Part shown: one piece after another, positions 20,229-53,736 of the stretch | Layout of the letters: every line of letters starts with the position of its first letter | Position numbering within the stretch: the stretch's first letter is position 1 | Assembly: GCA_050230475.1 (NCBI GenBank) | Contig: JBFLGF010000143.1 | Location: 1 to 64,000, forward strand | Reading direction: 5' to 3' | DNA from: Ancylonema sp. | Lineage: Eukaryota | Length of the DNA: 64,000 nucleotides | Translations under genes and position numbers: made by a program | Notes under the pieces: model-generated | Told to the model about the DNA's origin: nothing | The model's database searches: none | What the model saw: only the letters and a program-made list of their open reading frames with translations

Positions 20229-20800
20229 TTGGTACTCCAACACGTGCATCGGGAGCGCACTGGCTTCCTTCCTTCATCGGTACCTGGGGGGCGCGGAGGG
20301 CGTATGGACATTGTGATTTCGGGTGCAGCGGCGGGGCACACTTTGGTCGACATTGTTGTTGCGGACCCTACCCGTCGTGATTTGGTGGAGCGCGCCGCTA
20401 GACAGGATCTCATCGCCGCTACAGATGCGGAGCGAAGGAAGGAAACCCGCTATCGAGATCGCGCACCGAAATTCGTGCCCTTCGCTCTTGAGGTGCATAC
20501 GGTGCATTGTCGGACAACAGGTCGGATCGATATTTGGTCGAGTGTGCAATGTTAGCATCTAGAGAGTCTGCATGATCGGGGCCCTCCATTAGCTTGTTGT
20601 GCACATAGTTCCGTCAGAGAATGTCGATTGCATTGCAACAATCGCTAGCACATGCGATACATGCTAGAACCATGTGTCTAGAGCAATCCACAGCCTTGTT
20701 GCCTCCCCCACCAGTGCGCGCTCCACTTTCCACGAAGTTGCATATTGTTGCTAGTTTTGTCTAGTGCGATCAGCTCATATATTTGTCGTTTTTAGGATAG
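20229..20800 (+). mobile_element. 3' remnant of a non-LTR retrotransposon with a restriction-like endonuclease (CRE/R2-type)
   Basis: RMDIV...LVDIVVADP...AATDAERRKETRY...KFVPFALE fits the RLE pattern (D, D, E..K, F.P...E). It is frameshifted downstream. A shorter copy lies at ~23083-23370. Confidence 0.65.
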
Positions 20801-21422
20801 GTAGTTTCTATACAGGCACGTTCTTGTAATGAGATGGGGTTCCCGTCGTTTCTCCATAATTACAGTAAGTACAGTACAGTAGTCGGTTGTCAATGGCGCA
20901 ATACACATTGGGGTAATCTGGCGCTGTAAAAATTGAATATTGCCGTATATGACCGCTACTTCTGTGTGTTGGCCTCACCACTCCGAGGATGATGCAGCTC
21001 TTGACCGACGAAGAAATGCCCATCGATCGGAAGCCTTCATCTTCCGCACTCGCAGCCCAAATATTTTTTCAAAACTGTAAAACATGACAGCACAAGTAAA
21101 CAAATTGTTCTGGCAATGACTGTGCCTTTTGCGGTGGAAACGTGGCCGGGGTGCCATCAATATGCCTAAGGCTGCCCTAAACATTTGAAATTTCATAACT
21201 TTTATTCGAGAATGCAGAAATCTGCATTGCAGCCTGCGGTAGAATCTCCGCCTCCATCATCAACTGCCTGGCCCGCAGCCAGAATATCTTCTCCAAATCT
21301 GCGCAGCCCGTCCAAAGGTGAAGAACAAACCCAGTTCCGAGAAGAACATTCGATATTATGGTGGCATCACGGCTTGCTCCTCTGCTATAGAAATATGAAG
21401 GAAGTGCTGACAGCAGGTGCTA
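20519..21422 (+). repeat. ~0.9-kb direct repeat, copy 1 (copy 2 at ~23082-24002)
   Basis: Colinear similarity, for example the translations MQKSALQPAVESPPP...EEHSILWWHH occur in both copies. Confidence 0.9.
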
Positions 21423-21487
21423 TTCTGTCGTGTACTTGTGTCGGAAATACTTATTTTATTGCAAACTTCTTCGTTTTCCCACTCCAG

Positions 21488-22920
21488 TAAGCAACGTCGC
21501 AGCAGCAGCAGTGGCTGCAGCAGCTGCCGCCGGAGTCGGAACAGGAGGCCTTGTGGCAGAAGTGGAGCCGAGACCCGATTTCGCGCTCTGGACCACCGAG
21601 GATGATCTGCAACTCTTAGACGCCATGGAGGTAGGAGTCACCCTAATTGTACAAAATTGCTCACATAGAACCCGGACATCGAAAATACCAGGATTATTGG
21701 AAGCACTCCTATGAATATGCCGAACGCTGCTAATGCGACATGTGCAGGTAGCAAATGCAATACAAGTCGTCCAGATGATCGTCAATTCACGTCTCATTTC
21801 TCTTGCCTCACCAGAGCGGCGCTGCCATGGAGGCCCTCGCCAAGGGCGCTCTCCAGTTCTCTCGGCGCTTCACGGTGAAGGAACTTCGTGCGAGGTGGCG
21901 AGCCCTCCTCTATGATCCCGTCATCGGCCCTCGCGCAGCGGCTCCACTCGTGCGATCTGAGCCGAAAGACGTGGCGCATCCTGGGAAGCACACAGGAAGG
22001 CACGGATATAGCGGCGGTCGGAAGAGGAGAGCGCAGGAATCGAACATGGTGCGGGCGGAGTTCCACAGGCGTCAGCGAATGCGGGCCATGGAAGCAATGG
22101 GTGGGGTAGGAATGGATAACCTCCTTTGTCATGGAGGGAACGGCGAACAGGCGGAGATGTTAAACTACGAAGGGCTGGGAGATGAGATGGGGGACGAGGC
22201 GTTTCTGAGGCATAACTATGAGGTGTTGGAGGGGCTGGAGGCGTGCGAGAAGCTGGAGCTGGGAGGGGTAGACGATATGGAGGCAGAGGATCCTGCTTTC
22301 TCCCACATGGTGCACCTGTTGGCGGCTGGGGGGTTTGACGCGTTGGGGAAGGACCTTCCTGGAAGTTTCCTGGAGGGGGCTGGCAGGGATGAGGATTTAG
22401 ACGAGTTTGTGGACGGTGCGGAGGTGGGGGGTAGTCACAGAGAGGAGTACAGACAGAATTCAGAAAATGTGGTGCCCTCGGTCCCTCCCCCCCCCTCTGA
22501 TGGAATGGGAAGAGAGGGTTTGGGAGGGGGAGGTGCTGCTGACTCGGCACTGACACGTCCCGTGAAGGAGGAGGAGGACAGCGCAATGTATTACGCGTAT
22601 GACTCGGTTTTGGGGGGAGCGGGGATGGGCGCAGCACTGTCATTGGCTCCAGAGGAGAGGCAGGAGGGGGTGGCAGCATGGACAGCTGGCATCCCCTTAC
22701 CCCATGCAGAGTCTACCAGTGCTCTCCCGCCACCTGGCAGTATGGCAACGGGGCCGAAGAAGTCGGATGTGAACTCCACTTCCCTGTCGAGGCTAGCAGA
22801 CGTGCAGCCAATGACTGCGATGCTGGGGGGAGGGGCCAATGGGGTGACACCAGCTGTCGCTGAGGTGCCCACGGCCTCCCATGGAGATGATGCGGAGGGC
22901 ACAGCCATGAGTTCGGAGGA
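21488..22920 (+). pseudogene. MCRS1 (microspherule protein 1)-like N-terminal fragment, no FHA domain visible
   Basis: WTTEDDLQLLDAME|SGAAMEALAKGALQFSRRFTVKELRARWRALLYDP with an intron at 21631-21814 is the MCRS N-terminal motif. The frame runs into an N at 22921 and then into repeat sequence. Confidence 0.7.
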
Positions 22921-23081
22921 NAAATGTGACGAACCGAAACCGTGGCCAAAGTCAGGCGCAAGTCCGAACCATATTCATATTCATAGTCACTAAGGAATGC
23001 TCTAATAGATAAAAATAGGTGTTTATTATAACCGAATGACGGGGTTCCCATCCTCTTACGACGAAAAAATAAGTGTCTTGT

Positions 23082-24002
23082 AGGTCGGATCGATATCTGG
23101 TCGAGTGTGCAACGTTTGCATTTAGTGTGTAGGATCAGGGTCCTCTATTAGCTTGTTGTGCACATGGGTCCATCAGAGAGTGTCGATTGTATTGCAACAG
23201 TCGCTAGCACATACGATACATGCTATAACTCTACGTCTAGAGCAATCCATGGCCTTGTTGCCCCCCCACTACCGTGCGCTCCACATTCTTCGGCGAAATT
23301 GCATATTGCTTCTAGTTTTGTCTATGTGCGATCAGCTCACATATTTGTCGTTTTGAAGGATATGTAGTTTCTATACAGGCACGTTCTTGTAATGAGATGG
23401 GGTTCGTTTTTCATAAACAGGCGACAATATTTGCCTATCAATCACTTCCTGGTACAGTTGTCGGTTGTAAATGGCGCAATACACATTGGCGTAATGTGGC
23501 GCTGTAAAAATTGAATATTGCCGCATATGACCGCTACTTGTGTGTGCTGGCCTTACCAGTGAGGATGATGCAGCTCTTGACCGACAAAGAAATGCCCATC
23601 GACGCGAGGCCTTCATCTTCCTCACTCGCAGCACGAGGATTTTCTCAAAACTGTAAAACATGATAGAATGAAGTGAACTAATTGTTCTCGCAATGACTGT
23701 GCCTTTCGCGGTGAAAACGTGGCCGGGGTGCCATCAGTTTGCCTAAGGCTGCCCTGAATATTTGAAAGTAATAAACTTTTCTTCGAGAATGCAGAAATCT
23801 GCATTGCAGCCTGCGGTAGAATCTCCACCTCCAACATCATCTGCCTGGCCCGCAGCCAGAATGTCTTCTCCAAATCTGCGCAGCCCCTCCAAAGGTGAAG
23901 AACAAACGCAGTTCCGAGAAGAGCATTCGATATTATGGTGGCATCACAGCTTGCTCCCCTGCTACATAAAAATGAAGGAAATGCTGACATCAGGTGGTGC
24001 TA
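23082..24002 (+). repeat. ~0.9-kb direct repeat, copy 2
   Basis: Colinear with 20519-21422. Confidence 0.9.
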
Positions 24003-28321: not shown

Positions 28322-29975
28322 AGTACTGGTGAGATGCAGGTCTGGGCAGCACTCGACGCCGGGAGAAGCCGATCAAAAATCGCATGTGTGTTGGCGGTGG
28401 TACAGTTAAATCAGATCGGGCAAGTTAGTTGGTGCCGCTCGAAGTATATCTCCCGTGACTTGACATGACACGTGTGGGCAAGAATGCAACGGCCGTATAT
28501 CTCGAGATTTGGAGCAAAGATACAGAACTCCGCCGATCGGACCGGTGCATACAAACAACTCGATGTGATTGGTGTTCACCTTTCCTGATATCTCTGACAA
28601 TCTTAGCCGCCAGGCACGTCTGGAACTTGAGATGTACCCGAGATATGACCTCACGTAGGAGGCCAATGAGGGAGTAAGTTCAGTCTGTCTACGAGCTTGG
28701 CGCGCTGCACAATTGCTGACGCGAGCGCTTGTCAATGTCAAGTTCAGCCTCGGCGGTGGTTGGCCACAGGGCGCCGACAAATCATGGGACGGGTTTCGAT
28801 CCGATGTTGACGAGTCCAGCTGGGCATACCGTACCGAACCTGTTGATTTCCTCGCCCTTTCACGATTTGAACAAATACAACCACACCTTGGGTTGTGCGA
28901 CCCGCCAGCCCGCCCAATCGCCCACCCGCACGGCCTTTTTCCCATCTGCGGCTGGAAGCCTCTTGACCGCGGGTGGAAGCCTCCCGACCGCGGGTGGATC
29001 CTCCCCAGTCGCGTGAGAGGTGGGTGGGTGGGTGAGTGGGATATGGCACAGCAAACGATTTGAAAGTACTGGAACCACGCAAGGATCTTGGAGGTGAAAT
29101 GGTGTCGTGCTGTATAGCATCGTGTATGTACACACGTGTGAAACCCTCGTTATAACAAGACTCGTTGTACATGTGTGTTGTAATGGGTGTGAATGCAATC
29201 TGAGAGAGGCAGTAGTACTGGTGAGATGTAGGACTGGGCAGCAATTGACGCTGGATGAAGCTGATCAAAAGTAACTTATGAGTTGCGGCGGTGATACGGT
29301 TAAATCAGATCGGGCAGCTTTTGTATGGTACCGCTCGAAGCATATCTCCCGTGACTTGACATGACACGTGTGAGCAAGAATGCAACGGCCGTATATCTCG
29401 AGATTTGGAGCAAAGATACAAAACTCCGCTGATCGGACGGGTGCATACAAGCAACTCGATGTGATTGGTGTTCACTTTTCATTATAGCTCTGACAATCTT
29501 AGCCGCCAGGCACGCCTGGAACTTGAGGTGGAGACCTCACATATGAGCCAATGAGGGAGTATGTTCATTCTGTCTACGAGCTTGGCGCGCTGCACAATTG
29601 CTGACGAGAACGGTTGTCAATGTCAAGTTCAGCCTCGGCGGTGGTTGGCCACAGGGCACCGACAAATTATGGGACGGGTCACGATCTGATGTTGACTAGT
29701 CCACCTGGGCATACCGTACCGAACCTGTCGATTTCCTCGCCCTTTCACGATTTGATCAAATACCACCACACCTGGGGTTGTGCGACCCGCCAGCCCGCCC
29801 AACCGCCCACCCGCGGACGGCCTTTATCCCATCTGCGGCTGGCAGCCTCCCGACCGCGGGTGGATCCCCCCAGTCGCGTGAGGGGCGGGTGGGTAGGTGG
29901 GTGGGTGTGTGGATGAGTATGATATGGCACAGCAAACGATTTGAAACTACTGGAACCACGCAAGGGTCTTGCTGG
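28322..29975 (+). repeat. Tandem duplication of a ~770-bp unit (~28322-29091 and ~29214-29975)
   Basis: Both copies run from AGTACTGGTGAGATG through GGAACCACGCAAGG with high identity. Confidence 0.9.
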
Positions 29976-31147
29976 TGACTTGAAACGCAAGCATTGCAAA
30001 TGCACATGAGCGTGAGCTGGGGCGCCCCACGGAATTTGATGATGAGATCATCGACGTCCTTCAGGCGATGGGTATAAGCAATGGGGAATCCGATGTGGAA
30101 GAGTTTATCTCCCCGCCAATAGGGGATCAGGAGTTTGGCATCATGACGGTGCATTGGGTCACAAATGCAAAAGCAACTCTGGCATTGAGGCTCCTTGTTG
30201 GCAAGTGGAAGAAATGTGGACCATGTTCAACACATGGGATGTGAGGAGATGCGTGTTGAGCTCATTGAGAGTGATGAGGATGATGTCGACATGGAACCAT
30301 ACAAGATGACTCTCGTGGAATGTAGGGAGTCTCATGAAGGCATTGCATACTTTATCGCCCGAGTTGTTTATCTTGGAGACGAAGATTTGGTACAAAGCCG
30401 ACGACTAGCGATTACTAGCAATGCAAGCAACGTGTGTTGTGAACCGCAAGAAAGAGGGAATTAAGAAAAATTTTCCGGTAGTGGATGTCTAAGGTTATAT
30501 CAAACAAAGTGCAAGTACTCTACATGCAATTTCGGAAAAAAAAGATGTGGCTGCTCTCTTGTATTGATATTCATTTTATTGGCTTTGGTAAAGATAATGG
30601 CATGCATATCTGAATCTATATTTGTCAACAAAAAAATAAAAACAAGACCACCATATCATGAATTTTTTTTGTTTGATCAGCATGTAGTCGCTTGGTGCAA
30701 AGGATGCCTTTGGATGGTCCCATCCCCCACCACAAACCAACCGGTACCTCTCCTTGTCTCATTGTTGTGCTACCGCCAAGTTTCTCATGGTCAGGGTTAT
30801 CACCCGATTGAAGGCTTGGCCCCGCCGATCGAAGAATGTTTTCGATCGCTCCTGTGAAGTGTTGAGGTCTACCTCTTCCTCCAAAAGATGTTGAAGTTTG
30901 CTCTGCATGATGGGATCCCTACCAAACTGTTAGGACCCTCGCCATTGTCACTACTTTCCCCCTAGCGAGTGCCCTATCCTAGTGTGCTTGTCATAAACTA
31001 CAGTGTGCTTATATCGAGTCTAGTGCCCTTACCTTTCCGGTTGTTCTTATAACAAGTCCTTGACTTCTCCCACTAAGCTCCTTCTCTGATTCCTAGCTAG
31101 AGTATACAGCCTTTCTTTGTGTATTTATATAAACTCATATACCTCTC

Positions 31148-36708: not shown

Positions 36709-38571
36709 ATGCTGACAAGGGTACTTCAGGTGTACGCTGTGGAAAGCCTGAGGAGGTCTTTCGCGACATGCCTAAATGGAAATTCCGGAAGCGTTATAGA
36801 AGCTCCATCTCCGTCCGTTCCAAACGGTCAAATCGCGCATTCTGGCGTGCCAAGAATGTCGAGTGTGCCTCATGGTCTCACTCACAAGGCGCTGCTAGTT
36901 GATGCAGCTGGAACTTTGTTCGAGCCTTCCGAGCCTGTCTCACAGGTATTGCAACCTGTGTGAGGTCGAGTAACATTCGAGTAACATGTCGCCGAGATTT
37001 TATTTTTTTTTAGTCCAGATCGTAAAAAAATATCTGAAAGGGTTGCGTGTTCGGTTGATGTCCGGAGGAGCTTCAAATCCGTATTTTGGAGACCTGTGAT
37101 CCATTTGCGAGTAACCATGACTCTTCTCTCTTGTGCGAAGGTTTACCTTCGACTGGGCCTCAAATACGGTGTCAGCTTACCTGCAGAGGAGATTCTTCGG
37201 CGTTACCGTCGAGCCTATGCACAGCCATGGGTCCACTCAACCTTACGGTACGCCACATAGCCGTTGCCGAACACATACAGGCAGCAGTGCACATGATATG
37301 AAGGCAGCAGTGAATTGTACTCGGGTGTGGCTTCCGTTGATATCAAGTCCCTTCGATGGTGACAGGTATGTTGACGATGGGCGTCCATTCTGGCACCACA
37401 TCCTCTCAGAATCCTGCGGGTGCAACAGTCTTGATTTTGCTGAAGAGGTATATGAGTATTACACAACGTCGGAGGTAGGCACCGGCAGGGAGTGGCGCGC
37501 TCTTCTTTAATTCAGCCATTGGTGCTGACTGGATTGATACCAAGCAGTGCACTTGTGTTTGCCCCTGCTAAGAAGCATGAAGCAAGCAAGTGGAGTGTAG
37601 CGCAATCGTTCTTGTGGAGCTAGGGAAAGCTGCAAACTTATCCACAAGGCTTTTTTCAAAGAAAGCTTTCGCACTGCTTGTGCAGGCTTGGAGGATCATA
37701 GATCCGAGAGCAGGAGAGGCGTTTGCAGCTCTAAGGAAGGCAGGTGTGAAGACAGCGGTGGTATCTAATTTTGACACACGTCTCCGACCCATTCTAAAAG
37801 CTCTGGACTGCGACCACTGGTTTGATGCCATGGCTATATCTGCCGAGGTGATATACCCACGAAATTAAACTGTCGCTTCGATAGAATCGGTGTTTGCACA
37901 CTCCACCACTGCTTGCATTGCTGTTTACTCCTTATGCAAAGAGAAAAGGAGAACAGAAGGAGATGTATCCATGTTCCTCTCTCGTAGCATTGAAGTTGCC
38001 AAACAGGATCCAATCAAGGAACAGCCTAACAGGCATGAAGAATCCACAAAAAAGTGCCGCTCAGTTACATGGGAGCCTTCGAACTTGTTTGGATGATGCT
38101 CAATCAAATCAGAAGTGGATGTCTCCCCAGGTGCGTGCTGAGAAGCCGAATCCAATCATATTCCATAAAGCGTGTGAGCTGCTTCAAGTAGAGCCCCATG
38201 AGGCTATACATGTGGGAGATGACCGGAGAAACGATGTGTGGGGGGCAAGAGATGCCGGTTGTGCGACCTTGCATTGGGGATGTGATGTCTTCACCTTCTC
38301 TGAAGTGAGTGCTTCTATTCTATGAAACGAGTCATGAGTCGGAACTGGATCCTGGACAGGAGATAACAAAGGCTAGCAGCATCATAATTGCAAAACTATC
38401 AAGTGGCATGTGTTGGCAGGCGTACCTCTTTGCTTCTATTAAAGACATACAACGGATCGACACTCATTCGAAGAGACTCGTGTTGTCTCTATAGGTGGTA
38501 CGAAAGAAGGCTGTTTCATCTTATATATCATCTTATCTTTATCTCACACATTATCTTATCTCATCTTTTAT
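36709..38571 (+). CDS. HAD-superfamily hydrolase, HDHD3/REG-2-like
   Basis: Exons ~36709-36945, 37141-37247, 37366-37473, 37686-37847, 38131-38304 and a tentative 38494-38571. Motifs LLVDAAGTL, VVSNFDTRL, EKPNPIIF and HVGDDRRNDVWGA. Confidence 0.9.
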
Positions 38572-39720
38572 AATATCCACTGTTGTAGTAATAAGACGGC
38601 GTGGTTGTTTTGATTGCTCTCGATAACTTGTTGCACTACTAGATGCCAATCGAGGCGCACTAATTGATTTGATTGTGTGTGGTGGTGTGTGGCTAGGTGG
38701 CGCAGGAGTTGGGTGTACGTGTTGAGGAGTCATAGGACGTGGCTTGACGACAAGACTACAATGAATATGTAGAAATTGCAAAAGCTCGATGGACTAGCAC
38801 ATGGATAGTAGGATGGTTGCAATTGTCAGAGACAATTGCCACTAATTGTGTGCATGCTGCAAAGTACGATAAATCACTACCTTGTTTCTATTCAAGTGGT
38901 GGGATAAAAGAGGCCAAGGAGGTGGTACACTTGGGCTAAGGAGGTGGAGCACTTGTTTACCAAATCACACCGACATTCACATTTTCTCTGCACTTTACCA
39001 CCATCAATATCGTCTACATCTATTTCCCTTGGTTGGTCAACTTGCTGACCAATATTTTGTTATTTGTGAAGAGTTTCGTAGTGGCTTCATGCATGCTCAT
39101 GCTCATGCTCATGTTTCATAACTCCATTCAATCATTGAAGTTTGGTATAATCATGTAGATGATGGATGGTGAACTATTGTCGGCTAGTAAATAAGGGCTC
39201 TTGGTCATGATGTCTCTACATTGGTTTCGTTTGTACCTCTGTGTGTACTATTCATCCATATAAATGTGCATGTATTATCTTCTGGCATTTGTTTGACAGC
39301 GTCATTTTCCTTGGCATTCGATCATATGAAATCATTCATTGTGATAACAATGTGAGATAAAATTGGTAAAATATGTGCCAATTACATTTCACAATGCTAT
39401 ACTGGATAAATGACCAGACAAACACTACTAGACCACCTAAAAAGCTCAAAACTAACGAAGCAATGACATATGCGTTGGATTTTGTACAAGAAGAGTAACG
39501 AGACCTAGCCTATCATAATGTACATATTCTTTCCTTCTCTCCATGCTCCACAATCTTCTTTCGTCCTAGGTGCCAGCATAATGTCAACGACATTGCTAGT
39601 GCCTTGAGCAAATATCACAATTCATTCTCGATTGCGTGTTTCTACATCTTTTCCAAGAATCAGCAGAATCACTCTATAAAACTTCATCGAGTTACATACC
39701 CATACTACTGGACAAGTTAC

Positions 39721-39816
39721 TCACATGATGATTTCTGGTTTGAAGATGGAGACTTTGATTTCTTTGTGAGGGAGAATCTTGGCGCCGTTGACGTACAACT
39801 CGTCGCTGATGTGGAC
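39721..39816 (-). pseudogene. Orphan 3' fragment of a GMP last exon
   Basis: The minus strand encodes [31 protein letters not shown] and is cut at the duplication junction. Confidence 0.9.
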
Positions 39817-40790
39817 TTACACAACGTCGGAGGTAGGCACCGGCAGCGAGTGGCGCGCTCTTCTTTCATTCAGCCATTGATGCTGACTGGATTCATACCA
39901 AGCAGTGCACTTGCGTTTGCCCTTCTTGCTAAGAAGCGTGAAGCAAGCAAGTGGAGCGAGGGGAAGCTGCAGACTTGTCCACGAGTTTGCAGCTTTTTTA
40001 AAGAACGCTTTCGTACTGCTTGTGCAGGCTTGGAAGATCATAGATCCGAGGGCAGGGGAGGCGTTTGCAGCCCTGAGGAAGGCAGGTGTGAAGACAGCGG
40101 TAGTATCTAATTTTGACACCCGTCTCCGACCCATTCTGAAAGCTCTGGAGTGCGACCACTGGTTTGATGCCATGGCTATATCTGCTGAGGTGATAAATCC
40201 ACGAAATTATATTGTCGCTTCGATAGAATCGGTGTTTGTACACTCCACCACCGCTTGCATTGCTGTCGACTCCTTTAGCAAAGAGAAAAGGAGAAGAGAA
40301 GGGGGTGTGTCCATGTTCCTCTCTCGTAACATTGAAGTTGCCAAACATCATCCAATCAAGGAACAAGCTGACATGCACGAAGAATCCGCAAAAAAAAGTG
40401 CCCCTCAGTTACATGGGAGCTTTCGACCGTGTTTGGATGTCTCCCCAGGTGCGTGCAGAGAAGCCGAATCCAATCATATTCCATAAAGCGTGTGAGCTGC
40501 TTCAAGTAGAGCCCCATGAGGCCATTCACGTGGGGGATGACCGGAGAAACGATGTGTGGGGGGCAAGAGATGCCGGTTGCGCGACTTTGCATTGGGGATG
40601 CGATGTCTTCACCTTCTCTCAAGTGAGGGCTCCTGTTGTGTTGTTGTGTGAAACGGGTCAACACTCATTGGAAGACATTGAAGGCAGCGCTCGTGCGTGT
40701 TGTCTCTATAGGTGGTATGAAAGAAGGTTCTTTCATCTTATATGTCACCTCATCTTTATCTCATGTATCATCTTATCTCATCTTTTATAA
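39817..40790 (+). pseudogene. 5'-truncated duplicate of the HAD hydrolase (end of exon 3 onward)
   Basis: Near-identical exons AWKIIDPRAGEAF...AISAE and VRAEKPNPIIF...DVFTFSQ. HAD motif I and the start codon are absent. Confidence 0.88.
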
Positions 40791-41878
40791 TATCCACTGT
40801 TGGAGTAGTAAGACGGCGCTTGTTGCACCACTAGATGCCAATGGAGGCGCACGTGCTGATTTGATTGTGTGTGGTGGTGTGTGGCTAGGTGGCGCAGGAG
40901 CTCGGTGTACACATTGAGGAGTCATAGGACGTGGCTCAATGTCGAGACGACAATGTGTAGAAATTGCAACGGCCAAATGGACTTGCACATGGATAGTTGG
41001 TGTAGTTGCAAATGTGATATACTATTGCCGTTGGTTGTGTGAGTGCCACGAAGTACGGCAGAAGTACGACACTGCCTTGTTTATATTCAAGTAATGGGAT
41101 ACATCGGGCCAAGGAGGTGCAGCACTTGTTTTCCAAATCACACCGACATTCACATATATTTTCTACACTTTACCACCATCAATATCTTCTACACCTATTC
41201 CCATTGGTTGGTGATATTGCTCACCAAGATTTTGTTATTTATGAAGATTTTTGTAGTGGCGTCATGCATGCTCATAGTGATGCTTTATGTGTCATACCTC
41301 CAATCAATCATTGAAGTTTAGTACAATCAAGTCAATGATGAATGGTGAACTGTTGCCGTCAAGTAAAGAAGGGCTCTTGGTCATGATGTATATGTGTTAG
41401 CTTCGTTTGTACCCGTGTGTCTACTATTCATCCGAATAAGTACACATGTATCATCTTATGGCATTTGTACGAAAGCCTCAAATTTTCTTGGCATCCGATC
41501 AGATGAAATCATTCATCGTGACAACACGAGTGAGATAAATTGGTTGAATATGTGACAATTACATTTCACAATGCTTTACTGGATTAGTAACCAGACAAAT
41601 GTTGCTCGACCACCAAAAAAGGCTCAAAATTACCGAAGCAATGCCACATGCATTTGATTTTGTACAAGAAGAGTATGGAGACCTAGCCTACCCTAATGTA
41701 CATATTCTTTCCTTCTCTCCATGCTCCCCAATCTTCTTTCGTGCCAGCATCATGTCGACGACATTGCTAGTGCTGTGCGCAAAAACCACGATTAATTATC
41801 GATTGCGTCTTTCTACATCTATTCCAAACTCAGCGGAATCACTTTATTGAGTTATACACGTACCACCGACCAAATTGT

Positions 41879-43627
41879 TCACATGATGATTTCTGGTTTG
41901 AAGATGGAGACTTTGATTTCTTTGTGAGGAAGGATCTTGGCCCCGTTGACATACAACTCGTCGCTGATGTGGACATCCTCGCCAAGCACTTTGTTAGAAA
42001 ACTCATGTAGAGAGGCTCTCCACGCGGACCCAGGAGCCAATCCAGATTCTTGTGGAATGCCACCTGTCAACACATGTCCATTATCGACCCCTCGCTGCGT
42101 CAGAAAACTCATGCAACATGCAGGTTGCGGTGGTAGAGAGGCTTAGTCCAGTGTGTGGGGCCATAATTACCCCACGAGAACCCCTCAGTGCTGGACGGGG
42201 TTTTGACCCTTTGGTTTGGGCTCTGACTACGGCAGCAGTCACTCCTTGGCTCACCCCACGATGCTCCCCGTGACGCACGCGTGTTTCTTGATCCTGACAC
42301 CCCTCATGATGGTGCAGCGAGTGAGGCGCACGCCGTCCTCGATGACGCACCCCGGGCCGATGCACACGTCGGGGCCGAAGAGGCAGCCCTCCCCCACGCT
42401 GGCGGAGGCGTCGATCATCACGCACGTTCCCCACCGTGTGGGCCCCGCTGGCCAGCCGCTCCGGGAAGCGGTGGCGGAGGGAGTCGAGGTAGAGGACGAG
42501 GCCGGTGAGGACGTCCTTGGGCTGCCCGATGTCCATCCAGAACCCCGGGAGCTCCGGAGCTCCATGGCGAACAGCTTGCCCTCCTTGGCGATGAAGGGGA
42601 ACACCTCCTTCTCGATGCTGGTGGGCTTGAGCGGGATGCGCGGAGGGCGAGAGGAGGTAGATGCCCGCGTTGATCTTGGTGCCCACAAAGATCTTCGGCT
42701 TCTCCACAAACCGCTGCACCTGCCCGCTGCTCTCCTCCAGAATCACCACCCCGTACTTGGACGGCTCCTCCACCCTCGTCACCAGCAGCGTGGCTTCCGC
42801 GCCGCGGGCCGTGTGGAAGGCGGCCATGGCCGTCAGGGGGTACTCGCTGATGACGTCGCTGTTGAGCACGAAGAAGGGGTCCCCGCTGCCGTCGTCCAGA
42901 ATGTGCTTGGCCAGTGCCAGGGGGCCAGCTGTCCCCATGGGCTCCGTCTCCTGCGAGCACACGATCTTGATGTCCAGGCGGGACTCGAACTCCTTCAGAA
43001 ACGACAACATCACCTGCCGCCAAACAGAGCCGGGAAAACGAATTAAGTTTTTCAGATCCGCAATAAAAGAGGAAACCTCCAGCAGCGACATTGGCGACAT
43101 CATATGAGCGAATGCAGTGAAGGAGCATCGTGACATGTCAGCGCAATACCTCGGGCTGTTAGTTGATGGCGAGCACACCTTCATCGACTCCCGCTTCCTT
43201 TAGTGCCTCAATCTGAAGAAAAAAAAACAGCGATGATTTGAGCACCTGGTGCACCTGTTCCCCTGCTCACGAAATGCTGACTGCAGTAGCTTGTCTCTTT
43301 ATTACAAACTAATCCACACTGCCTGCATGCTTCAACGGGATTTTTGAGGAAGTAGGCGACGAGGACGTACGTTGAATGATGCCACATTAACAGCTGGACG
43401 ATGCCAAATGAACGCTCAGGAATCCACGAGTTCTCAATGTCACTAGCAGCAAAGGTAGTTCGTGTTCTGTCGAGACTGCAAGAGCGACAGCCACGTGTTG
43501 AACCTGTCTAACTCACCTGATGCAGAATCATCGGCTTGTTGGCAAAATCCACTAGCGGTTTAGGAACGCTTAATGTCAGTGGACGCAGGCGGGTGCCGAA
43601 CCCACCGACGAGAATTAATGCTTTCAT
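41879..43627 (-). pseudogene. GDP-mannose pyrophosphorylase (VTC1/CYT1-like) pseudogene
   Basis: Exon 1 at 43517-43627 is intact ([18 protein letters not shown]). Exon 2 reads AIN*QPE. Exon 3 has frameshifting indels near 42645, 42555 and 42425, and exon 4 has insertions. Confidence 0.88.
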
Positions 43628-45314: not shown

Positions 45315-47107
45315 ATGAAGGCTTTAATTCTTGTGGGTGGTTTCGGGACTCGCCTCCGTCCACTAACACTGAGCGTCCCGAAGCCGTTGGTGGACTTCGC
45401 CAACAAGCCTATGATTTTGCACCAGGTGATAGCACTGATAATGCTGAATGCCGATGCTCGTAATTTTCGCAGGGCAAGTCAGGGAGTAATCTGGGAGGAA
45501 ATTGACGACGTCTATGGTGTGGTATTGTATTTATCATGGTTGGAAGCTGACGATCGTCTATGGTGTGGTATTGTATTTATCCTGGTTGGAAGCTGACGAT
45601 CGTCATCTCGTCATAATCATCGCGTTTTCCCCAAGACCCGTCCTTTTAATTCATGCGATTACCTGGTGCCATTCTTTCATAACTTTTCGCAACCTCAGAC
45701 ACTGTCCTGCAATGTCATAATAAACGCCATCATTCTTTGAGGGGGAAAAATCGCCTGCTCATGTGATGTCTTCCGCTGCGCCCTTTTTCTTGTAGATCGA
45801 GGCTCTAAAAGCCGCTGGAGTTGACGAGGTCGTCCTCGCGATCAACTACCAGCCCGAGGTGCGCCACAGTGTCGCTTGACTTACGTCCAATACCATTATC
45901 CTTACAGTGCCGCATTTTGGCTTCCGCTTGATTTTGATTTTGAAAATTTCCCCATAAACCAGAAATATTGCCCTGGAACCTTATCTGCAAGAGGTCCTCA
46001 CATCGCTCGCCCCACCTGGCTCTGTTTGGCGGCAGGTGATGTTGTCGTTTCTGAAGGAGTTCGAGTCCCGCCTGGACATCAAGATCGTGTGCTCGCAGGA
46101 GACGGAGCCCATGGGGACAGCTGGCCCCCTGGCACTGGCCAAGCACATTCTGGACGACGGCAGCGGGGACCCCTTCTTCGTGCTCAACAGCGACGTCATC
46201 AGCGAGTACCCCCTGACGGCCATGGCCGCCTTCCACACGGCCCGCGGCGCGGAAGCCACGCTGCTGGTGACGAGGGTGGAGGAGCCGTCCAAGTACGGGG
46301 TGGTGATTCTGGAGGAGAGCAGCGGGCAGGTGCAGCGGTTTGTGGAGAAGCCGAAGATCTTTGTGGGCACCAAGATCAACGCGGGCATCTACCTCCTCTC
46401 GCCCTCCACCCTGGCGCGCATCCCGCTCAAGCCCACCAGCATCGAGACGGAGGTGTTCCCCTTCATCGCCAAGGAGGGCAAGCTGTTCGCCATGGAGCTC
46501 CCGGGGTTCTGGATGGACATCGGGCAGCCCAAGGACTTCCTCACCGGCCTCGTCCTCTACCTCGACTCCCTCCGCCACCGCTTCCCGGAGCGGCTTGCCA
46601 GCGGGGCCCACACGGTGGGGAACGTGATGATCGACGCCTCCGCCAGCGTGGGGGAGGGGTGCCTCGTCGGCCCGGACGTGTGCATCGGCCCGGGGTGCGT
46701 CATCGAAGACGGCGTGCGCCTCACGCGCTGCACCATCATGAGAGGCGTGAGGATCAAGAAACACGCGTGCGTCACGGGGAGCATCGTGGGGTGAGCCAAG
46801 GAGTGACTGCTGCCGTAGTCAGAGCCCAAACCAAAGGGTCAAAACCCCGTCCAGCACTGAGGGGTTCTCGTGGCCCCACACACTTAAGCCTCTCTACCAC
46901 CGCAACCTGCATTGAGTTTTCTGACGCAGCGAGGGGGCATGTGTTGACAGGTGGCATTCCACCATTGGCTCCTGGGTCCGCGTGGAGAACATGAGTGTGC
47001 TTGGCGAGGATGTCCACATCAGCGACGAGTTGTACGTCAACGGGGCCAAGATCCTTCCTCACAAAGAAATCAAAGTCTCCATCTTCAAACCAGAAATCAT
47101 CATGTGA
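45315..47107 (+). CDS. VTC1: GDP-mannose pyrophosphorylase (mannose-1-phosphate guanylyltransferase), 361 aa
   Basis: Exons 45315-45425, 45796-45858, 46036-46790 and 46951-47107 total 1086 nt in one open frame. Motifs [35 protein letters not shown] and a C-terminal hexapeptide region ending PEIIM*. Confidence 0.96.
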
Positions 47108-48147
47108 ACATGTGAGCCACGCCATGAAGTCGAGGAGGAGCTGTGGTTGATCCGATACATCTCTCCTTCCACTTGGAAGTCGATATACATTTTATTCATT
47201 GTGGGAGAAAATAATGCCCAAACTCCCCAGATACGACCCTTTCAAAATGTCACTCACTCATTGGTAGCGGAGCTACCTTGCGTGAGTCTCCAATTTTGAG
47301 CGTAGTTTTTTCTTACGTCTTGTAGCACACAACCGTCTCGGACAGGTATGCCTCCATTAATGTACAGCTATAGCAGCATGTGGAGCAGCATAGCAGTCAG
47401 TACGAGCTTTAATTGACAACACGAATTGTCCATAGATTGCGAAAAAACATGCAAAGAGCGCTGTCATAAGCCCCGTGAGAGAATGCGGGGGACGATCGGA
47501 TGCCCTCTTTCACATTTGATGTACATGGAGAACAGCGATGGCTGTACTATTTGAAACACATCGATGTCCGCAACATTCAAATTTTATGGTTACCGCCAGC
47601 TGAGTCAACATATAAGATGCGTATCCCACACAACCCACCACACCATCGGCTTGTGGATAATAAAAACTTGCCTTCTGCCTAAAGAGTGACACGTGTTGAC
47701 ACATGTTGCACTTGGAGAATTCACATTCACAAGCAAAATTGTGTACTCATCTGCGCATCGATCATATCACACACATAAGTACCGCCACTCCCTCTTAAAG
47801 CTACCTTGAGACTCTAGATGGGTACTGAAATTGTGAACACAAAATAATGACCTCCTTCCAGCCGTAGGATCTGCCTCTAAACCACATAAGACCTGAACCA
47901 AAGGAAATTTCCCGTCTTTCCAAACCGCCCTCTAACAATCACTTTAGTCCACAATCCCGGGTGAGAGAAACAGTGTGACAAACAACAGATTCGATCCAGA
48001 AAAGACACCTGTTCTTCACCTCTCACCCTCACTCTGCTTCTGTGCGGAGCGTGTGACAAGCCTCTGTGGAACCGCCACGTGTCATTCTGCCAACAACGTC
48101 ACATAGATGCCAGAGATGCCACGTGTCTTCCTCCTGGGCTGCCACCT

Positions 48148-49029
48148 GTCAGACAATCAGCCGTCTCGCCCAGTCCAGCGCCTTGAGCAGCACCTTCAGA
48201 GGCGGCGGCACCTTGAGGCCGTCCACCAGACTCTCTCCCGGCTTCATCACCAACACCTGTCGCCCACCCATCATTCACAACAATCATTCAGAATTATAAT
48301 AGAATTATAATAGAATTATAATAGAATTATAATAGAATTATAATAGAATTGTAATAGAATTATAATAGAATTGTAATAGAATTATAATAGAATTATAATA
48401 TAATTACAACAGAATTATTACAGAATTATTATATAATTATTATATAATATGATTATGATATGATTATAATATGATTATAATATGATTATAATATGATTAT
48501 AATATGATTATAACATAGCTTTTCACAAGACCCGTGCTCCGATTAGTGAGAGTAGCCAACCAGGCGTGAGTGCTGCCATGGGCCTCGAGTGAGTCCCTCT
48601 GTTTTTGGGATGGTGTGAACCCCAAGGAAAGCAGCACAGCAGTGGTACTCCTTGGATTGATCCACACCTTCTCCGACTTTCTCCGAAACTTCCTGTCTCC
48701 TGCCATCAACTGCCTCATCCACACCCCCCCCCCCACTCACTTCCACCTTCCTCCACCCCCACTTGTTTGCGTCTGCGTGCGAGTAGTGGTACAGATCCAG
48801 TCTGGTGGGGCCTTGAATGGCCGACCCCCGATCCTCCACCACTCCCCAACCGTATCCGGGGATGTGCATCCGAGTTCCGAAGGGGAAGTGGCGGGTATCA
48901 GCAGCGATGGTGCCGTGACGCGGAAAAAACCTCCACGGAAAGAGAAGTAACCTGCCGGGAATGCGCTCCACTTGCCGCAGGCTGAGAGGACTGAGGATGG
49001 CGGGGCGAGACTGAGCCGGGTATGTGCCC
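48148..49029 (-). pseudogene. 5'-truncated duplicate of the 3D-domain gene lacking introns 3 and 4
   Basis: Contiguous GTYPAQSRPA...HGTIAADTRHFPFGTRMHIPGYGWGVVEDRGSAIQGPTRLDLY, then an intron, then VLVMKPGESLVDGLKVPPPLKVLLKALDWARRLIV*. The TAYC-containing 5' exons are absent. Confidence 0.85.
48289..48512. repeat. AT-rich 11-mer minisatellite (TAGAATTATAA / ATATGATTATA), with a degenerate counterpart at ~50130-50400
   Basis: Read directly. It lies in the last intron of both 3D-gene copies. Confidence 0.95.
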
Positions 49030-49979
49030 AAACTAGCAAGGTATGACCCTTTCAAAATGTCACCCACTCATTGGTGGCGGAGCTACCTTGCGTGAGTCAG
49101 AAATTTTGAGCATAGTTTTTTCTTACATCTTGTAGCCCGCCACTCGGACAGTTATGCCTTCATTAGTGTAGAGCTATAGCAGTGTGTGAAGCAGTATAGC
49201 AATAGTGTACGAGCTTTAATTGACAACACATAGCGTCCATTGTTTGCGTAAAAACATGCGAAAAGCGATGTCAGAAGCATTGTTTTGAGCATCGTACGGG
49301 AATGCAGCAAACAGTCGGATGCCCTCTTTCACAGTTGACGTAGATGGGGAACAGCAACGGCTGTACTCGTTGTGACGAATCGATATCTGTAACATTCAAA
49401 TTTTATGATTCCCGCCAGCTGAGTCAACAAATAAATGTACATCCCACACAACCCACCACACCATCGGTTTGCGCATAATAAACACTAGCCTTATGCCTTA
49501 AGAGCGACACGCGTGAACACATCTTGCACTTGGAGTATGCACATTCACAAGCATAGTGTGTCAAATCAGTGCATCGATCACACTACACACAAGTACCGCC
49601 AGTCCCTCTTTTTGTTATCTTGAGACTCTAGATGGGTACTGCAATTGTAAAATTGCAGTACAAAATAATGACCACCATCCTCACTGACCTCCTTCCAGCC
49701 GTAGGGGCTGCCTCTATACCACATAAGGTCTGAACCAAAGAAAATTTCCGTCTTTCCAAACTGTCCTCTAACAGTCTCTCTAGTCCACAATCACAGTGTG
49801 AAAAACAACACAAACAGATTCGATCCAAAAAACGTTCTTCATTCCCATCGCCATGCACACCCTCACTCTCACTCTGCTTCTGTGCTGAACGTGTGACAAG
49901 CCTCTGTGGAACCGCCACGTGTCAGTCTGCCAACAAGGTCACATAGATGCCACGTGTCTTCCTCCTGAACCGCTACCTG

Positions 49980-51909
49980 TCACACAATCAGCCGTCTCGC
50001 CCAGTCCAGCGCCTTCAGCAGCACCTTCAGAGGTGGGGGCACCATGAGGCCATCCACCAGACTCTCTCCCGGCATCATCACTAACACCTGTCGCCCACAC
50101 ATGCCCAGCCATCATTGACAGTAATCATTCATAATTAGTATATAATGAGTATATAATTATAATAAAATCATAATATAGTTAGTATATTATTATAATATAA
50201 TTATAAGGCAATTATAATATAATTAGTATATAATTATAATATAATTATAATATTGTCATAGTATAATCATAACATAATTATAATGTAATTATAATATAAC
50301 TATAACATAATTCTAATATAATCATAATGTAATTATAATATAGTTTTAACATAATTATAATACAATTACAATGTAATTATAAAATGATCATAATATAGTT
50401 TTTCATATGAGTTGTGCTCCGATTAGTGAGAGAAGCCAAACAGGCGTCACTGCTGCCATGGGGCTTGAGTAAGTCCCTCTGTTTTGGGGATGGCGTGGCC
50501 ATGAAGGAAAGCAGCACAGAAGGGGTATTCCTTGGATTGGTCCACACACCACACCTTCTCCGAAACTTCCTGTCTACTGCCATCAACTCATGCCATGCCT
50601 CATGCCCTGCCTCATTTTCACACACCCTCCACTCACTTCGACCTTCCTCCTCCCCCATTTGTTTGCATCCGCATGCGAGTAATGATACAGATCCAGTCTG
50701 GTGGGGCCTTGTATGGCAGACCCCCGATCCTCCACCTGTCCGCAACCAGGGTGGCAGGAGATATGAGAGGTGGGGGTTGCAGGATCCGACACAATCTTCC
50801 ACAACTCTCGAGAAGTAATATGTCGCACGTTTGCACTGGGGGGCCGAAAATACAAGTGTAGAGGGACTGGGGGGGTGGAGAAGGGGTGAGGGAAAGAGTG
50901 AGTGGGTGGGGAGTACCCACCACTCCCCAACCGTAGCCGGGGATGTGCATTCGAGTTCCGAAGGGGAAGTGTCGGGTATCAGCGGCTATTGTGCCGTGAC
51001 GCGGCAGAAATCTCCACGGAAAGAGAAGTATTCTGCCAGGAATGCGCTCCACTTGGCGTAGGCTGAGAGGACTGAGACTGGCGGGGCGAGACTGGAGGCA
51101 CCAATCGGAGAGAGAGAGGTGGAGTGAGTTGTGGTGCAGCGATGAGGAGGCGGGGTATGCGGCCTGACCTGAGCCGGGTATGTGCCCCGTGCGGTTAGTC
51201 CCTGGTAGTGGTATCCCAACAGATTGGTGTCCGTCCAATATCTGAAGGGGAAAGCAAACGTACGGCTGAGATGATGTGAGGCACTGAAAGCAGATGTGAG
51301 CAGAATAGAGAAGGAAAGAGACACGCGAATGAGTCGTGGACGGATAAGGAGTAGGGAGGATGGGTGGCTGGGTGGCTGGGTGGATGGCGGGGCAGTACTT
51401 GGCCAGAAACGGGATGCTGGTCTTTTTCACTGCCCTTTTGCGAGAGCGGATGCGTATGGGAATGAGGGAGGGGGCGAAGCCAATGTAGAAATTTCCGGGA
51501 AGCTTCAAGCCCCACTCCCACTTGCAGCAGTGGCCGCAGCTGGGAGCGCAAAGGAGGGATATGAGGGGGGCAGAGTATGTGCGGAATCACAAGATCGTAC
51601 TCTGGTGATGTCTGTTGTTTTATCGTACATTGTGTGGAGATTTTTGCTGACTGGATCAGTGGTGAAGCATGGGGTGAGATGTGAATGAGACTTTTGCGCA
51701 AAAACAAGCGGAAGAGCAGCATACTGGCAACGGCCCTGCAACTGCGTGTCAGCCTGACGTCAGCTCCAGAAATATATCACACGATTTCAGAAGTCCGATG
51801 TGGCGCATTCGTTCTATTCTGATACGTGATCTTTACAGTACTTGATGGGCACAGGTAGATTAATTTACCTGCAATACGCAGTGCATTCCAGCAAACTCGT
51901 CGTCGGCAT
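49980..51909 (-). CDS. 3D (Asp-Asp-Asp) domain protein of bacterial type, 210 aa
   Basis: Exons 51869-51909, 51399-51539, 51169-51241, 50921-51091, 50637-50735 and 49980-50087 are all GT-AG, in phase, and total 633 nt. Protein: MPTTSLLECTAYCSCGHCCKWEWG...GLTARGT...GTIAADTRHFPFGTRMHIPGYGWGVVEDRGSAIQGPTRLDLYHYSHADANKWGRRKVEV. Confidence 0.88.
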
Positions 51910-53736
51910 TGTAGCCGACGCTTGTACACTGGTTTTAATGTGCGCACTGCACAACCGGTCATGTCACCATACACTGGAATTTGTTTAGAACGACCACAGT
52001 ACGGGCTGTCAGTCACATCGTCAGCTTTGATCCTTCCTACATTGGCACTGCATGATGTGCCACACACGTCTTGTTAAAAGCGCAATGACCACGGAATTGG
52101 TTGCATGATAGCACTGTACGTGTCGAGCTGGAGTGTTCTACATGAACGGCCTGAGGCTCTTCCGGCTCTTTCGGCTTTTCATCAATTGTATTTTCTTGTT
52201 GCGAATTGGATGGACACACTTGTATCCAGATGACAGAAACACAAACAGACAGAGTCTGAGCAGAAGGGGCGACGCTAGTCGTTAAATCGAAGTTTGGATA
52301 CATTCCGAGTCCTGCGTACTTCGTCTTAGCAATATTCCACACAACTTGGTGCAAACCAACCCCCAAATTAGTACAACACCGAACGCTCTGTGGACTGTCC
52401 GTGTTGACGATTTCACCCATGATGACGTCATAAAAGTGTTCATTCTTTACTCTGAAAGCGACAACGCCGTACTTATCTCGAATTTCGAGCGAGTGAAATT
52501 CACTTGGGTCGAGTGAAGAAAAATTTCCGAAATATTTTTGGATGCTCATGCTCTCCACGGATCTATTTAATGTCTTTCGAAGTGACCTGATAGCATAACA
52601 GAAATCTGTCGTTCAGAAAAATGTGACTTGTACATGGACTGGCAAGGCCGAAGCCAACCATGTCAGATTTATTTTTATGCTAAATTTCTTGTTCAGAGGA
52701 TGCTAACGTCGGACCCTCGATTCGCAACACAAAAAATATTACTCCATAAGGTCTATTAGTTTGCCTCGCCACAAATTGATTTCTTAAGTTTCGCTCCCCA
52801 TAGAAGATTCGGAAAGTAACAACAACGCACAGCCGCTACTTGTGTTGACATAAACCAAGTAAATATTGTTATTTATGGTAGCAGAGAACATGTGTTGTGG
52901 ATGATTTTTTGTGATGGTGTATTGCTGTGTCAATTGATCATCAATATATATTGCCACATGTCCACGATTCGTGTATTTACGATGAGAAGAGGTTAAACGT
53001 CTTGTCATACTATGATATTTCGTTGCACAACGATTTTCCATGCTGATGGCACAAAATTTAACCAAGTTTGTTAAAGAAATATCAACACTTCATGTTACTT
53101 TGCAAGGGTCACACTCCATACCATTGAGGCAGGGGATGTGTGTGAAGACCAATGGAGAATTTGTGCAGGAGCATATATGTCGTAACGATGTCTAGAGCCA
53201 TTTCCATTACGATTTTTAGGACTTGTGCGATAGCAGTACGGATTCAAACATCAAATTTTTCATGTTTTACAACAAATAGTTTGTATGCTTCTACGAAAGT
53301 TTCGTGCAAAAACCTCCACTCTGGTGTATTTCCAGCTGTCGTTATTTTATGGTGACATCCTTAGTCCCTCCCCTTATGAGTGCCCCGAAGAGCATTGAAA
53401 CCTTTCACTTGATGAAAGCAGAAACAAATGATGAAACAGATGTAAAGCAAACTGCAGCGCACGCACCAGTAGTGCCAAACTTTGTGCTTGTAATTCTATT
53501 CCGGCAATTTTATTTGGTCAATTCTATTATATTAGATACCCACTTATTTGGTACACCTCTTGGTCCTCCTAAATATCACTCAGTTTCATGTCACAAGTCA
53601 TAACACTACACCACCAGAGCCATAAATGATCACCAGTGACTACGAAGCGCTGACATAAATCCACTTATTATACAAAGCAAAACTCAAAAATTTGTCTCCT
53701 CAGATTTAGACACGGTCTCTCCTGTTTTCTCAATCT

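What the first reader, a model, noticed from the sequence alone, without database searches (positions are those of the whole stretch)
49980..51909. Intron-containing plant gene encoding a bacterial-type 3D-domain peptidoglycan enzyme
Seen: six in-phase GT-AG exons, not captured by any single ORF in the track, give a 210-aa protein with TAYCxCxxCCxW, GLTARGT, GTIAADT, FPFGT, IPGYGWGVVEDRG, RLDLY and WGRRKV. All three aspartates are kept, and the C-terminal helix looks amphipathic. Known: this layout is the 3D domain (Pfam PF06725) of bacterial MltA/YuiC/YocH-type lytic transglycosylases, and several non-flowering plant lineages retain plastid peptidoglycan. Inference: a domesticated bacterial gene, from horizontal or endosymbiotic transfer, that remodels plastid peptidoglycan or acts on symbiotic or pathogenic bacteria. 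No clear transit or signal peptide is visible, but a possible acceptor near 51947 allows a further 5' exon. Its position among plant genes argues against contamination.
Basis: partly seen in the sequence, partly recalled or inferred. Interest (0 to 1): 0.9.

Follow-up and report, generated by a model that had tools for sequence, protein, structure and literature searches.

The report
Ancient green-plant peptidoglycan-cutting enzyme gene
This spliced algal gene encodes a small bacterial-type enzyme, shared from green algae to conifers, that likely trims the remnant bacterial wall around chloroplasts, which makes it an untested candidate for how that wall is remodelled.

Summary
Six GT-AG exons give a 210-aa 3D-domain (PF06725) protein. 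RNA contigs of a close relative splice four of the five introns and run unspliced across the proposed extra 5' exon. The gene is not a one-off. It belongs to a family found in Prasinodermophyta, Chlorophyta, streptophyte algae, bryophytes, lycophytes, ferns and gymnosperms, with only two named angiosperms. All 33 green-type rows form one clade (97/93), beside lipoproteins that come mostly from Thermodesulfobacteriota, so one ancient acquisition is likely. The three aspartates are invariant in 50 of 50 eukaryotic rows. A confident model of a 71%-identical homolog matches YuiC and MltA. The named range follows the published range of the plastid peptidoglycan genes, and one Pyramimonas member carries a LysM domain. 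Best reading (0.55): a membrane-tethered lytic transglycosylase acting on the plastid's own peptidoglycan. Against it: the family has no transit peptide, moss already has MltB, and activity and location are untested. Databases label the family automatically; ten literature searches found no study of it.

The parts
51869..51909 (-). exon 1: start codon and first strand with the conserved Thr10-Ala-Tyr-Cys
   Evidence: RNA joint 51539/51869 in 4 of 4 runs
51399..51539 (-). exon 2: rest of the CxCxxCC motif and the eukaryote-specific hydrophobic and basic insert (about residues 25-56, net charge +8)
   Evidence: covered by RNA contigs
51169..51241 (-). exon 3: GLTARGT motif
50921..51091 (-). exon 4: subfamily-specific amphipathic stretch (about residues 92-113), first aspartate D123, IPGYGWG
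   Evidence: joints at both ends
50637..50735 (-). exon 5: D145 and catalytic D157 (YuiC D151 and D162), WGRR motif
   Evidence: PF06725 hit; YuiC alignment; RNA joint of 185 nt in run X2
49980..50087 (-). exon 6: last strand, C-terminal amphipathic helix and stop
   Evidence: RNA contigs cover 49883-50077 but none bridges intron 5
51910..52162 (-). unspliced 5' leader with an in-frame stop and several upstream ATGs; no coding exon
48149..49030 (-). 5'-truncated tandem copy: tail of exon 3 joined to exons 4 and 5 with no introns 3 and 4, intron 5 kept (48740-48257), exon 6 intact; no start codon of its own seen
   Evidence: dN/dS 0.06 over 131 codons
47215..50747 (.). tandem duplication: 49025-50747 matches 47215-48851 at 78-79% identity, including the 3' flank

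Best explanation
The gene encodes a 3D-domain protein of a green-plant-wide family that likely works as a membrane-tethered lytic transglycosylase, predicted to cut the glycan strands of the plastid's own peptidoglycan layer. Shown: gene structure, splicing of four introns, family range, one clade, invariant T/D/D/D. Predicted: a double-psi barrel as in YuiC and MltA. Inferred from YuiC chemistry: D157 protonates the glycosidic oxygen and the strand is released with a 1,6-anhydro end, D145 holds the -2 sugar, T10 orients D157. Inferred origin: one transfer from a non-cyanobacterial bacterium before the green phyla split, with loss of the signal peptide and lipid-anchor cysteine. Inferred anchoring: the basic-hydrophobic insert and C-terminal amphipathic helix (a glycine-rich hydrophobic segment in prasinophyte forms) would replace the lipid anchor and hold the enzyme at the plastid envelope without a cleavable transit peptide. 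Inferred role: opening, trimming or turning over the wall during plastid growth and division, alongside MltB.
For: Catalytic set: D123, D145, D157 in 50 of 50 eukaryote-type rows; T in 42 of 42 ungapped rows; the three Asp align with YuiC D129/D151/D162 (roles from passages of PMC4499186). Fold of homolog P0004: pLDDT 94.5, pTM 0.88; top VIA match YuiC Z 11.6, rmsd 2.5, 96 aligned; six MltA-type chains Z 8.4-10.7. Range by name: Prasinoderma (two clusters), Pyramimonas, a pedinophyte, Chlorokybus, Klebsormidium, Chara, Closterium, liverworts, mosses, lycophytes, ferns, Ginkgo, Picea, Araucaria, Cryptomeria, Taxus, and only Tasmannia and Colocasia among angiosperms. PMC7455551 (passages) gives nearly the same range for the ten core peptidoglycan enzymes, lost in core chlorophytes and most seed plants; PMC12681378 (passages) reports the set in Picea abies. 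No Arabidopsis, rice, Chlamydomonas, Chlorella or Ostreococcus name appears in the three 120-row lists. A Pyramimonas member has a C-terminal LysM domain above cut-off (22.5 vs 20.9 bits). Most plastid peptidoglycan enzymes are reported to be non-cyanobacterial too (PMC8227023 passages). In bacteria a class A PBP gene lies in the fetched flank of 32 of 100 loci (related genomes, not independent). There is no signal peptide for export towards bacteria.
Against: No transit peptide: 45 of 51 hand-picked eukaryote-type sequences have 25 or fewer residues before the first catalytic strand, and 30 of 31 Chara-to-seed-plant-type sequences have exactly 10. PMC4815162 reports predicted transit peptides on representative pathway enzymes (section read). 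The co-distribution is a comparison of hit names with literature, not a genome-by-genome test; most rows are unnamed and only top lists were seen. Several lineages reported to hold most or all of the pathway did not appear by name: Cyanophora, Micromonas pusilla, Ulva, Asparagus, Citrus. Whether Tasmannia, Colocasia or the pedinophyte keep the Mur genes was not tested. Another lytic transglycosylase is already on record: MltB in moss (citing sentence only) and in Prasinoderma (supplement row). PMC4815162 searched Phytozome for families tracking the pathway and reported a LysM protein (PPASP), not this one.
Confidence: 0.55

Rival explanations
1. It cuts the plant's own plastid-derived peptidoglycan, but outside the plastid: on the cytosolic face of the envelope or during plastid breakdown, clearing or recycling glycan fragments.
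For: The conserved lack of any targeting peptide points to synthesis and residence on the cytosolic side. The range still tracks the pathway. Cytosolic moss NagZ and LdcA homologs are recalled from Utsunomiya 2021, which could not be read.
Against: Polymeric substrate lies between the envelope membranes (PMC8227023 passage); no export of glycan strands is known to me. Amphipathic elements suggest a fixed membrane site.
Confidence: 0.15
2. It is an antibacterial or digestive enzyme acting on the walls of ingested, symbiotic or invading bacteria.
For: Strongly basic protein (net +16); YuiC degrades peptidoglycan in zymograms. Some pyramimonads eat bacteria (search listing of PMC5167767 on Cymbomonas). 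LysM fusion would also suit this.
Against: No signal peptide in the family. Scarce among named angiosperms and unseen in core chlorophyte models, which also meet bacteria. Low copy number and about 60% identity from this alga to conifers look like a housekeeping gene.
Confidence: 0.15
3. The barrel was repurposed for another glycan (chitin-like GlcNAc oligomers or a wall polymer, as in expansin-like barrels) or for binding only.
For: YuiC also cleaved penta-GlcNAc (passage). Expansins and loosenins share the fold (Z 7.5-8.0). Three of the four cysteines are lost in 3 of 42 eukaryote rows.
Against: All YuiC/MltA catalytic residues are invariant; the sequence match is to YuiC only (3 PDB sequences at E<1); the range follows plastid peptidoglycan rather than wall type.
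Confidence: 0.12
4. Bacterial contamination or a recent, lineage-specific transfer.
For: Bacterial relatives reach about 60% identity over the core.
Against: Five GT-AG introns, four seen spliced; neighbours include a DUF4378 gene and WD40, cation-efflux and NifS-like genes; the gene nests among zygnematophyte-type sequences at 99/96.
Confidence: 0.01

Closest known systems
YuiC / SpsC of Bacillus subtilis (3D domain, PF06725; PDB 4WJT, 4WLI, 4WLK)
   Same: Stand-alone double-psi barrel; three aspartates in register; best sequence (E 3e-16) and structure match (Z 11.6).
   Different: No signal peptide; CxCxxCC motif; two inserts and a C-terminal amphipathic helix; 60-69 bits against a 280-bit cut-off for the SpsC model; eukaryotic and spliced.
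MltA membrane-bound lytic transglycosylase
   Same: Catalytic barrel (Z 8.4-10.7) and aspartate set (PMC4499186); membrane-associated way of life (inferred for the plant protein).
   Different: 210 aa against 325-405 aa chains; lacks the large inserted domain; no lipoprotein anchor.
Uncharacterised 3D lipoproteins of Desulfobulbales and other bacteria
   Same: Nearest bacterial relatives; share the cysteine motif and the amphipathic stretch before the first Asp.
   Different: They carry a signal peptide and lipobox-like Cys (48 of 48 by a loose rule; 41 of 49 by a stricter one). The plant protein starts just after that Cys and adds the insert and the tail helix.
Known plastid peptidoglycan toolkit (MurA-G, MraY, Ddl, PBP; MurJ, MltB, VanY, DipM in moss; PPASP)
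   Same: Similar patchy range across green plants; largely non-cyanobacterial origin.
   Different: No 3D/MltA-type member is named in the texts searched. MltB is GH103, a different fold family (recalled). The Mur enzymes have predicted transit peptides; this family has none.

Membership tests
3D domain (PF06725) | profile score above the curated cut-off | tested here: met
   32.4 bits on the exon-5 ORF, 53.1 on the tandem copy, cut-off 23.8; 57.5 on homolog P0004
3D domain (PF06725) | three conserved aspartates | tested here: met
   D123, D145, D157; align to YuiC D129/D151/D162; 50 of 50 eukaryote-type rows
3D/MltA lytic transglycosylases | double-psi beta-barrel fold | tested here: met
   model of the 71%-identical homolog P0004, pLDDT 94.5; YuiC Z 11.6, rmsd 2.5, 96 aligned; the window protein itself was not folded
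3D/MltA lytic transglycosylases | Thr that orients the catalytic Asp (YuiC T91, MltA T99) | tested here: inconclusive
   T10 is invariant (42 of 42) and lies in the aligned range (model 1-171 to chain 81-176), but no residue-level pairing was shown
3D/MltA lytic transglycosylases | cleaves peptidoglycan to 1,6-anhydro products | not testable with these tools
   needs an enzyme assay
SpsC/YuiC equivalog (NF058633) | score above the 280-bit cut-off; signal peptide | tested here: not met
   60.6-69.4 bits for the copy ORF and plant homologs; no signal peptide
MltA (full length) | inserted second domain and lipoprotein anchor | tested here: not met
   210 aa; only PF06725 found on window ORFs and homologs; no lipobox
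Plastid peptidoglycan toolkit | cleavable N-terminal transit peptide | tested here: not met
   9 residues before the first catalytic Thr, upstream in-frame stop, unspliced leader; no targeting predictor was run
Plastid peptidoglycan toolkit | co-occurs with Mur/PBP genes | tested here: inconclusive
   named hits match the published range, but no genome-by-genome test was possible
Plastid peptidoglycan toolkit | envelope location and plastid division phenotype | not testable with these tools
   needs tagging and knockouts

The most novel reading that the evidence does not exclude
An overlooked core component of the plastid wall machinery: a YuiC/MltA-type lytic transglycosylase taken once from a non-cyanobacterial bacterium at the root of green plants, re-anchored by amphipathic elements in place of its lipid anchor, reaching the envelope without a transit peptide, and lost wherever the plastid wall was lost. 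It would then also mark which angiosperms still build a plastid wall.
Probability: 0.4. Interest if true: 0.8.

Novelty: new variant of a known kind. Interest (0 to 1): 0.6.

Why it matters
How the peptidoglycan layer of plant and algal plastids is opened and turned over, and which seed plants still have it, are open questions. This family is a concrete candidate with named orthologs in Marchantia and Physcomitrium, a clear catalytic residue to mutate and a standard assay. If it acts on the plastid wall it adds a second lytic transglycosylase class to the toolkit, shows a route to the envelope without a transit peptide, and supports the view that the wall machinery was assembled from several bacterial donors. 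If it acts on bacteria, it is an ancient, undescribed plant lysozyme-like enzyme.

Tried and rejected
No whole genome is held, so Mur/PBP genes of this organism could not be sought. Wrong acceptors and donors at introns 1, 3, 4 and 5 were tried and gave frameshifts. The RNA joint 49010/51169 looked like splicing into the tandem copy; laid on the main gene alone, the same contigs give the 77-nt and 185-nt introns, so I treat it as a placement artefact. Intron 5 has no RNA bridge; with contigs that proves nothing. Introns 3 and 4 have no second copy in the window, so there is no sign of repeated mobile introns here. The careful mixture-model tree did not finish; its quick form put a Sumerlaeota sequence next to the eukaryotes at 86, while the second tree did not, so no donor is named. 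In one search the outgroup was not one side of a branch (2 rows off). Cyanobacteria: Synechococcus elongatus has a PF06725 match (control) but its sequence was not obtainable, so cyanobacterial origin was not tested by tree. Marine contigs with the prasinophyte form are eukaryotic and syntenic (GC 54-70%) but could not be named, so the Micromonas pusilla versus M. commoda test stayed open. Literature searches that found nothing relevant. Supplements of PMC4815162 and PMC7455551 had no PF06725, IPR010611 or '3D domain'. Utsunomiya 2021 is not held. Three look-ups of earlier findings were empty. No complex prediction was run.

Full report
1. The observation. On the minus strand six exons (51909-51869, 51539-51399, 51241-51169, 51091-50921, 50735-50637, 50087-49980) join in frame to 210 aa, with GT..AG introns of 329, 157, 77, 185 and 549 nt. 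PF06725 hits the ORF with exon 5 at 32.4 bits and a neighbouring copy without intron 4 at 53.1 bits, cut-off 23.8. Four polyA metatranscriptome runs of one study, labelled ice metagenome, hold a small share of the words (0.07-0.09). Laid on the gene, their contigs give the intron 1 joint in 4 of 4 runs, intron 3 in 4 of 4, intron 4 in 1 of 4, and skip intron 2 inside single contigs; none bridges intron 5. They differ from the window by about 1-9% per piece, so they come from a related strain or allele. The N-terminus is therefore very likely complete. Neighbours are eukaryotic: a nucleotidyl transferase with hexapeptide repeats, an aminotransferase class V (NifS-like) gene, DUF4378, cation efflux, HAD and WD40 genes.

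2. A second copy. Directly downstream lies a tandem duplicate (49025-50747 against 47215-48851, 78-79% identity). It begins in the last 20 nt of exon 3, lacks introns 3 and 4 precisely, keeps intron 5 and has an intact exon 6. Over 131 codons, 26 differ synonymously and 6 change the residue; dN/dS is 0.06. That points to purifying selection for most of the time since the copies split, yet no start codon or 5' exons were seen. Whether the copy lost two introns through a cDNA or the main gene gained them is unresolved.

3. The family. A search with the 98-aa core returned 331 proteins among 373 candidates; the top of the 120 listed were streptophyte proteins of about 210 aa, followed by bacteria. 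A profile of 16 plant rows gave 1144 among 4055, a 24-row profile over 50% representatives gave 45 at E<=1e-30, and a prasinophyte-type profile gave 302 among 7988. Thirty clusters were looked up. Named members: Prasinoderma coloniale (two clusters), Pyramimonas (two), Pedinophyceae sp., Chlorokybus, Klebsormidium, Chara, Closterium, Marchantia, Calypogeia, Riccia, Sphagnum, Physcomitrium, Ceratodon, Selaginella, Diphasiastrum, Ceratopteris, Adiantum, Pteridium, Ginkgo, Picea, Araucaria, Cryptomeria, Taxus, Tasmannia and Colocasia. My reading of the labels Mesen1, Mesvir1 and SM as Mesotaenium, Mesostigma and Spirogloea is recalled. The Colocasia model lacks an inner stretch and the tail helix. 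A few unnamed sequences resemble the angiosperm ones (P0173 groups with them). The ESM Atlas gave one mostly streptophyte cluster, one chlorophyte cluster and bacterial clusters led by Thermodesulfobacteriota and Verrucomicrobiota (taxa rest on few members). The window protein is 71-72% identical to its two nearest homologs and about 60% to Picea.

4. Origin. In a 72-row tree (152 columns filled in at least 70% of rows, LG+G4) all 33 eukaryote-type rows form one clade at 97/93, and the window gene sits with Closterium and the Mesen1 sequence at 99/96. A quick mixture-model tree of 65 rows agreed (26 rows, SH-aLRT 97). I labelled unnamed rows as eukaryote-type from their insert and missing lipobox; the fill threshold should drop most of those columns. 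The sister group is a set of bacterial proteins, mostly Thermodesulfobacteriota among those named (91/91), but its sampling came from a Desulforhopalus query, the two trees differ on the nearest row, and no cyanobacterial sequence was included. One early acquisition from a bacterium is supported; the donor is not identified. The bacterial proteins look like lipoproteins (48 of 48 with the motif by a loose rule, one fragment of 49 loci dropped; 41 of 49 by a stricter rule). Plant proteins start just after that cysteine.

5. Anatomy and mechanism. The spliced protein could only be used inside scripts, so homolog P0004 was folded: pLDDT 94.5, pTM 0.88 with 143 rows. Foldseek and VIA both rank YuiC first (E 4e-6; Z 11.6, rmsd 2.5, 96 aligned), then MltA-type chains and a diffocin baseplate chain (Z 8.4-10.7), then expansin-like barrels (Z 8 and below). 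The profile aligns the three aspartates with YuiC D129, D151 and D162; D162 is the catalytic carboxylate, oriented by T91, and D151 binds the -2 sugar (PMC4499186, passages). In the 143-row alignment D123, D145 and D157 are kept in 50 of 50 eukaryote-type rows and T in 42 of 42 ungapped ones; three of the four cysteines in 39 of 42. The eukaryotic additions are a hydrophobic and basic insert and an amphipathic tail helix; several prasinophyte-type forms have a glycine-rich hydrophobic segment (19-residue hydropathy 1.7-2.3) and no tail helix. I infer that these replace the lost lipid anchor. One Pyramimonas member adds a LysM domain. No member type has a regular transit or signal peptide: 45 of 51 have 25 or fewer residues before the first strand (hand-picked full-length rows, some near-identical).

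6. Which substrate. The named range matches the published range of the ten core plastid peptidoglycan enzymes: kept in Prasinoderma, streptophyte algae, bryophytes and ferns, lost in core chlorophytes and most seed plants (PMC7455551, passages), and kept in Picea (PMC12681378, passages). Closterium plastid division depends on the layer (PMC13519894, passage). Most of those enzymes are reported to be non-cyanobacterial (PMC8227023, passages), so the origin is no obstacle. Against this stand the missing transit peptide, the presence of MltB, the absence by name of Cyanophora, Micromonas pusilla, Ulva, Asparagus and Citrus from my lists although they are reported to hold most or all of the pathway (PMC10784329, parts 1-2 of 3; PMC4815162, part 5 of 12), and the fact that absence from top lists is weak evidence either way. 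I put a plastid-envelope role at 0.55, cytosol-side clearance of plastid wall fragments at 0.15, action on bacteria at 0.15 and another glycan at 0.12.

7. Novelty. UniProt and GenBank label many members '3D domain-containing protein', so the sequences are known. Ten full-text searches found no paper on a plant or algal 3D protein. Term searches inside PMC13519894, PMC12681378, PMC8227023, PMC4815162 and PMC9954125 found no '3D domain', PMC9434261 had no 'MltA', and two sets of supplements had no PF06725. The library lacks most subscription papers, among them Utsunomiya 2021, and supplements of other genome or gene-transfer papers may list the family. Verdict: a real gene, a new variant of a known enzyme kind, apparently unstudied, and a testable candidate for plastid wall turnover.

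Noticed in passing
window 48149-49030 (-): 5'-truncated tandem copy that lacks introns 3 and 4 exactly but keeps intron 5; dN/dS 0.06 against the main gene.
   Followed up: partly
window 50130-50400 and 48280-48515: AT-rich low-complexity repeat inside intron 5 of both copies.
   Followed up: no
window 41876-43034 and 46015-47110: Inverted duplicate at 92% identity of a nucleotidyl-transferase gene (GDP-mannose pyrophosphorylase-like; name inferred from Pfam hits).
   Followed up: no
window 20519-23996, 28322-29978, 37459-41974: Further local duplications at 80-87% identity, one over HAD hydrolase genes; the window is rich in local duplicates.
   Followed up: no
window 51910-52200 (-): Eight ATGs in the 290 nt upstream of the start codon; possible upstream ORFs in the leader.
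   Followed up: no
window 52037-52612 (-): 191-codon open frame just upstream of the gene with no Pfam hit; its end overlaps the RNA-covered leader.
   Followed up: no
P0276 / P0418 (Pyramimonas): 3D protein with a C-terminal LysM domain above cut-off and weak N-terminal EF-hand hits.
   Followed up: partly
L001:1-7222, L013:4-5878 and related loci: Conserved order in many Desulfobulbales: class A PBP (opposite strand), mutL, 3D lipoprotein, optional MFS transporter, GidA-family gene.
   Followed up: partly
L064, L072, L074, L076 (marine contigs): The prasinophyte form lies in a conserved eukaryotic block with a SUMO-activating enzyme gene and, in most of these loci, fibrillin and cytochrome c assembly genes; one group appears to carry an intron (971-nt match span).
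   Followed up: partly
P0003, P0015: Longer database models fuse the 3D protein to other domains (Closterium: PF12352, PF27021; Adiantum nelumboides: PF00665, PF17921); probably merged gene models.
   Followed up: no
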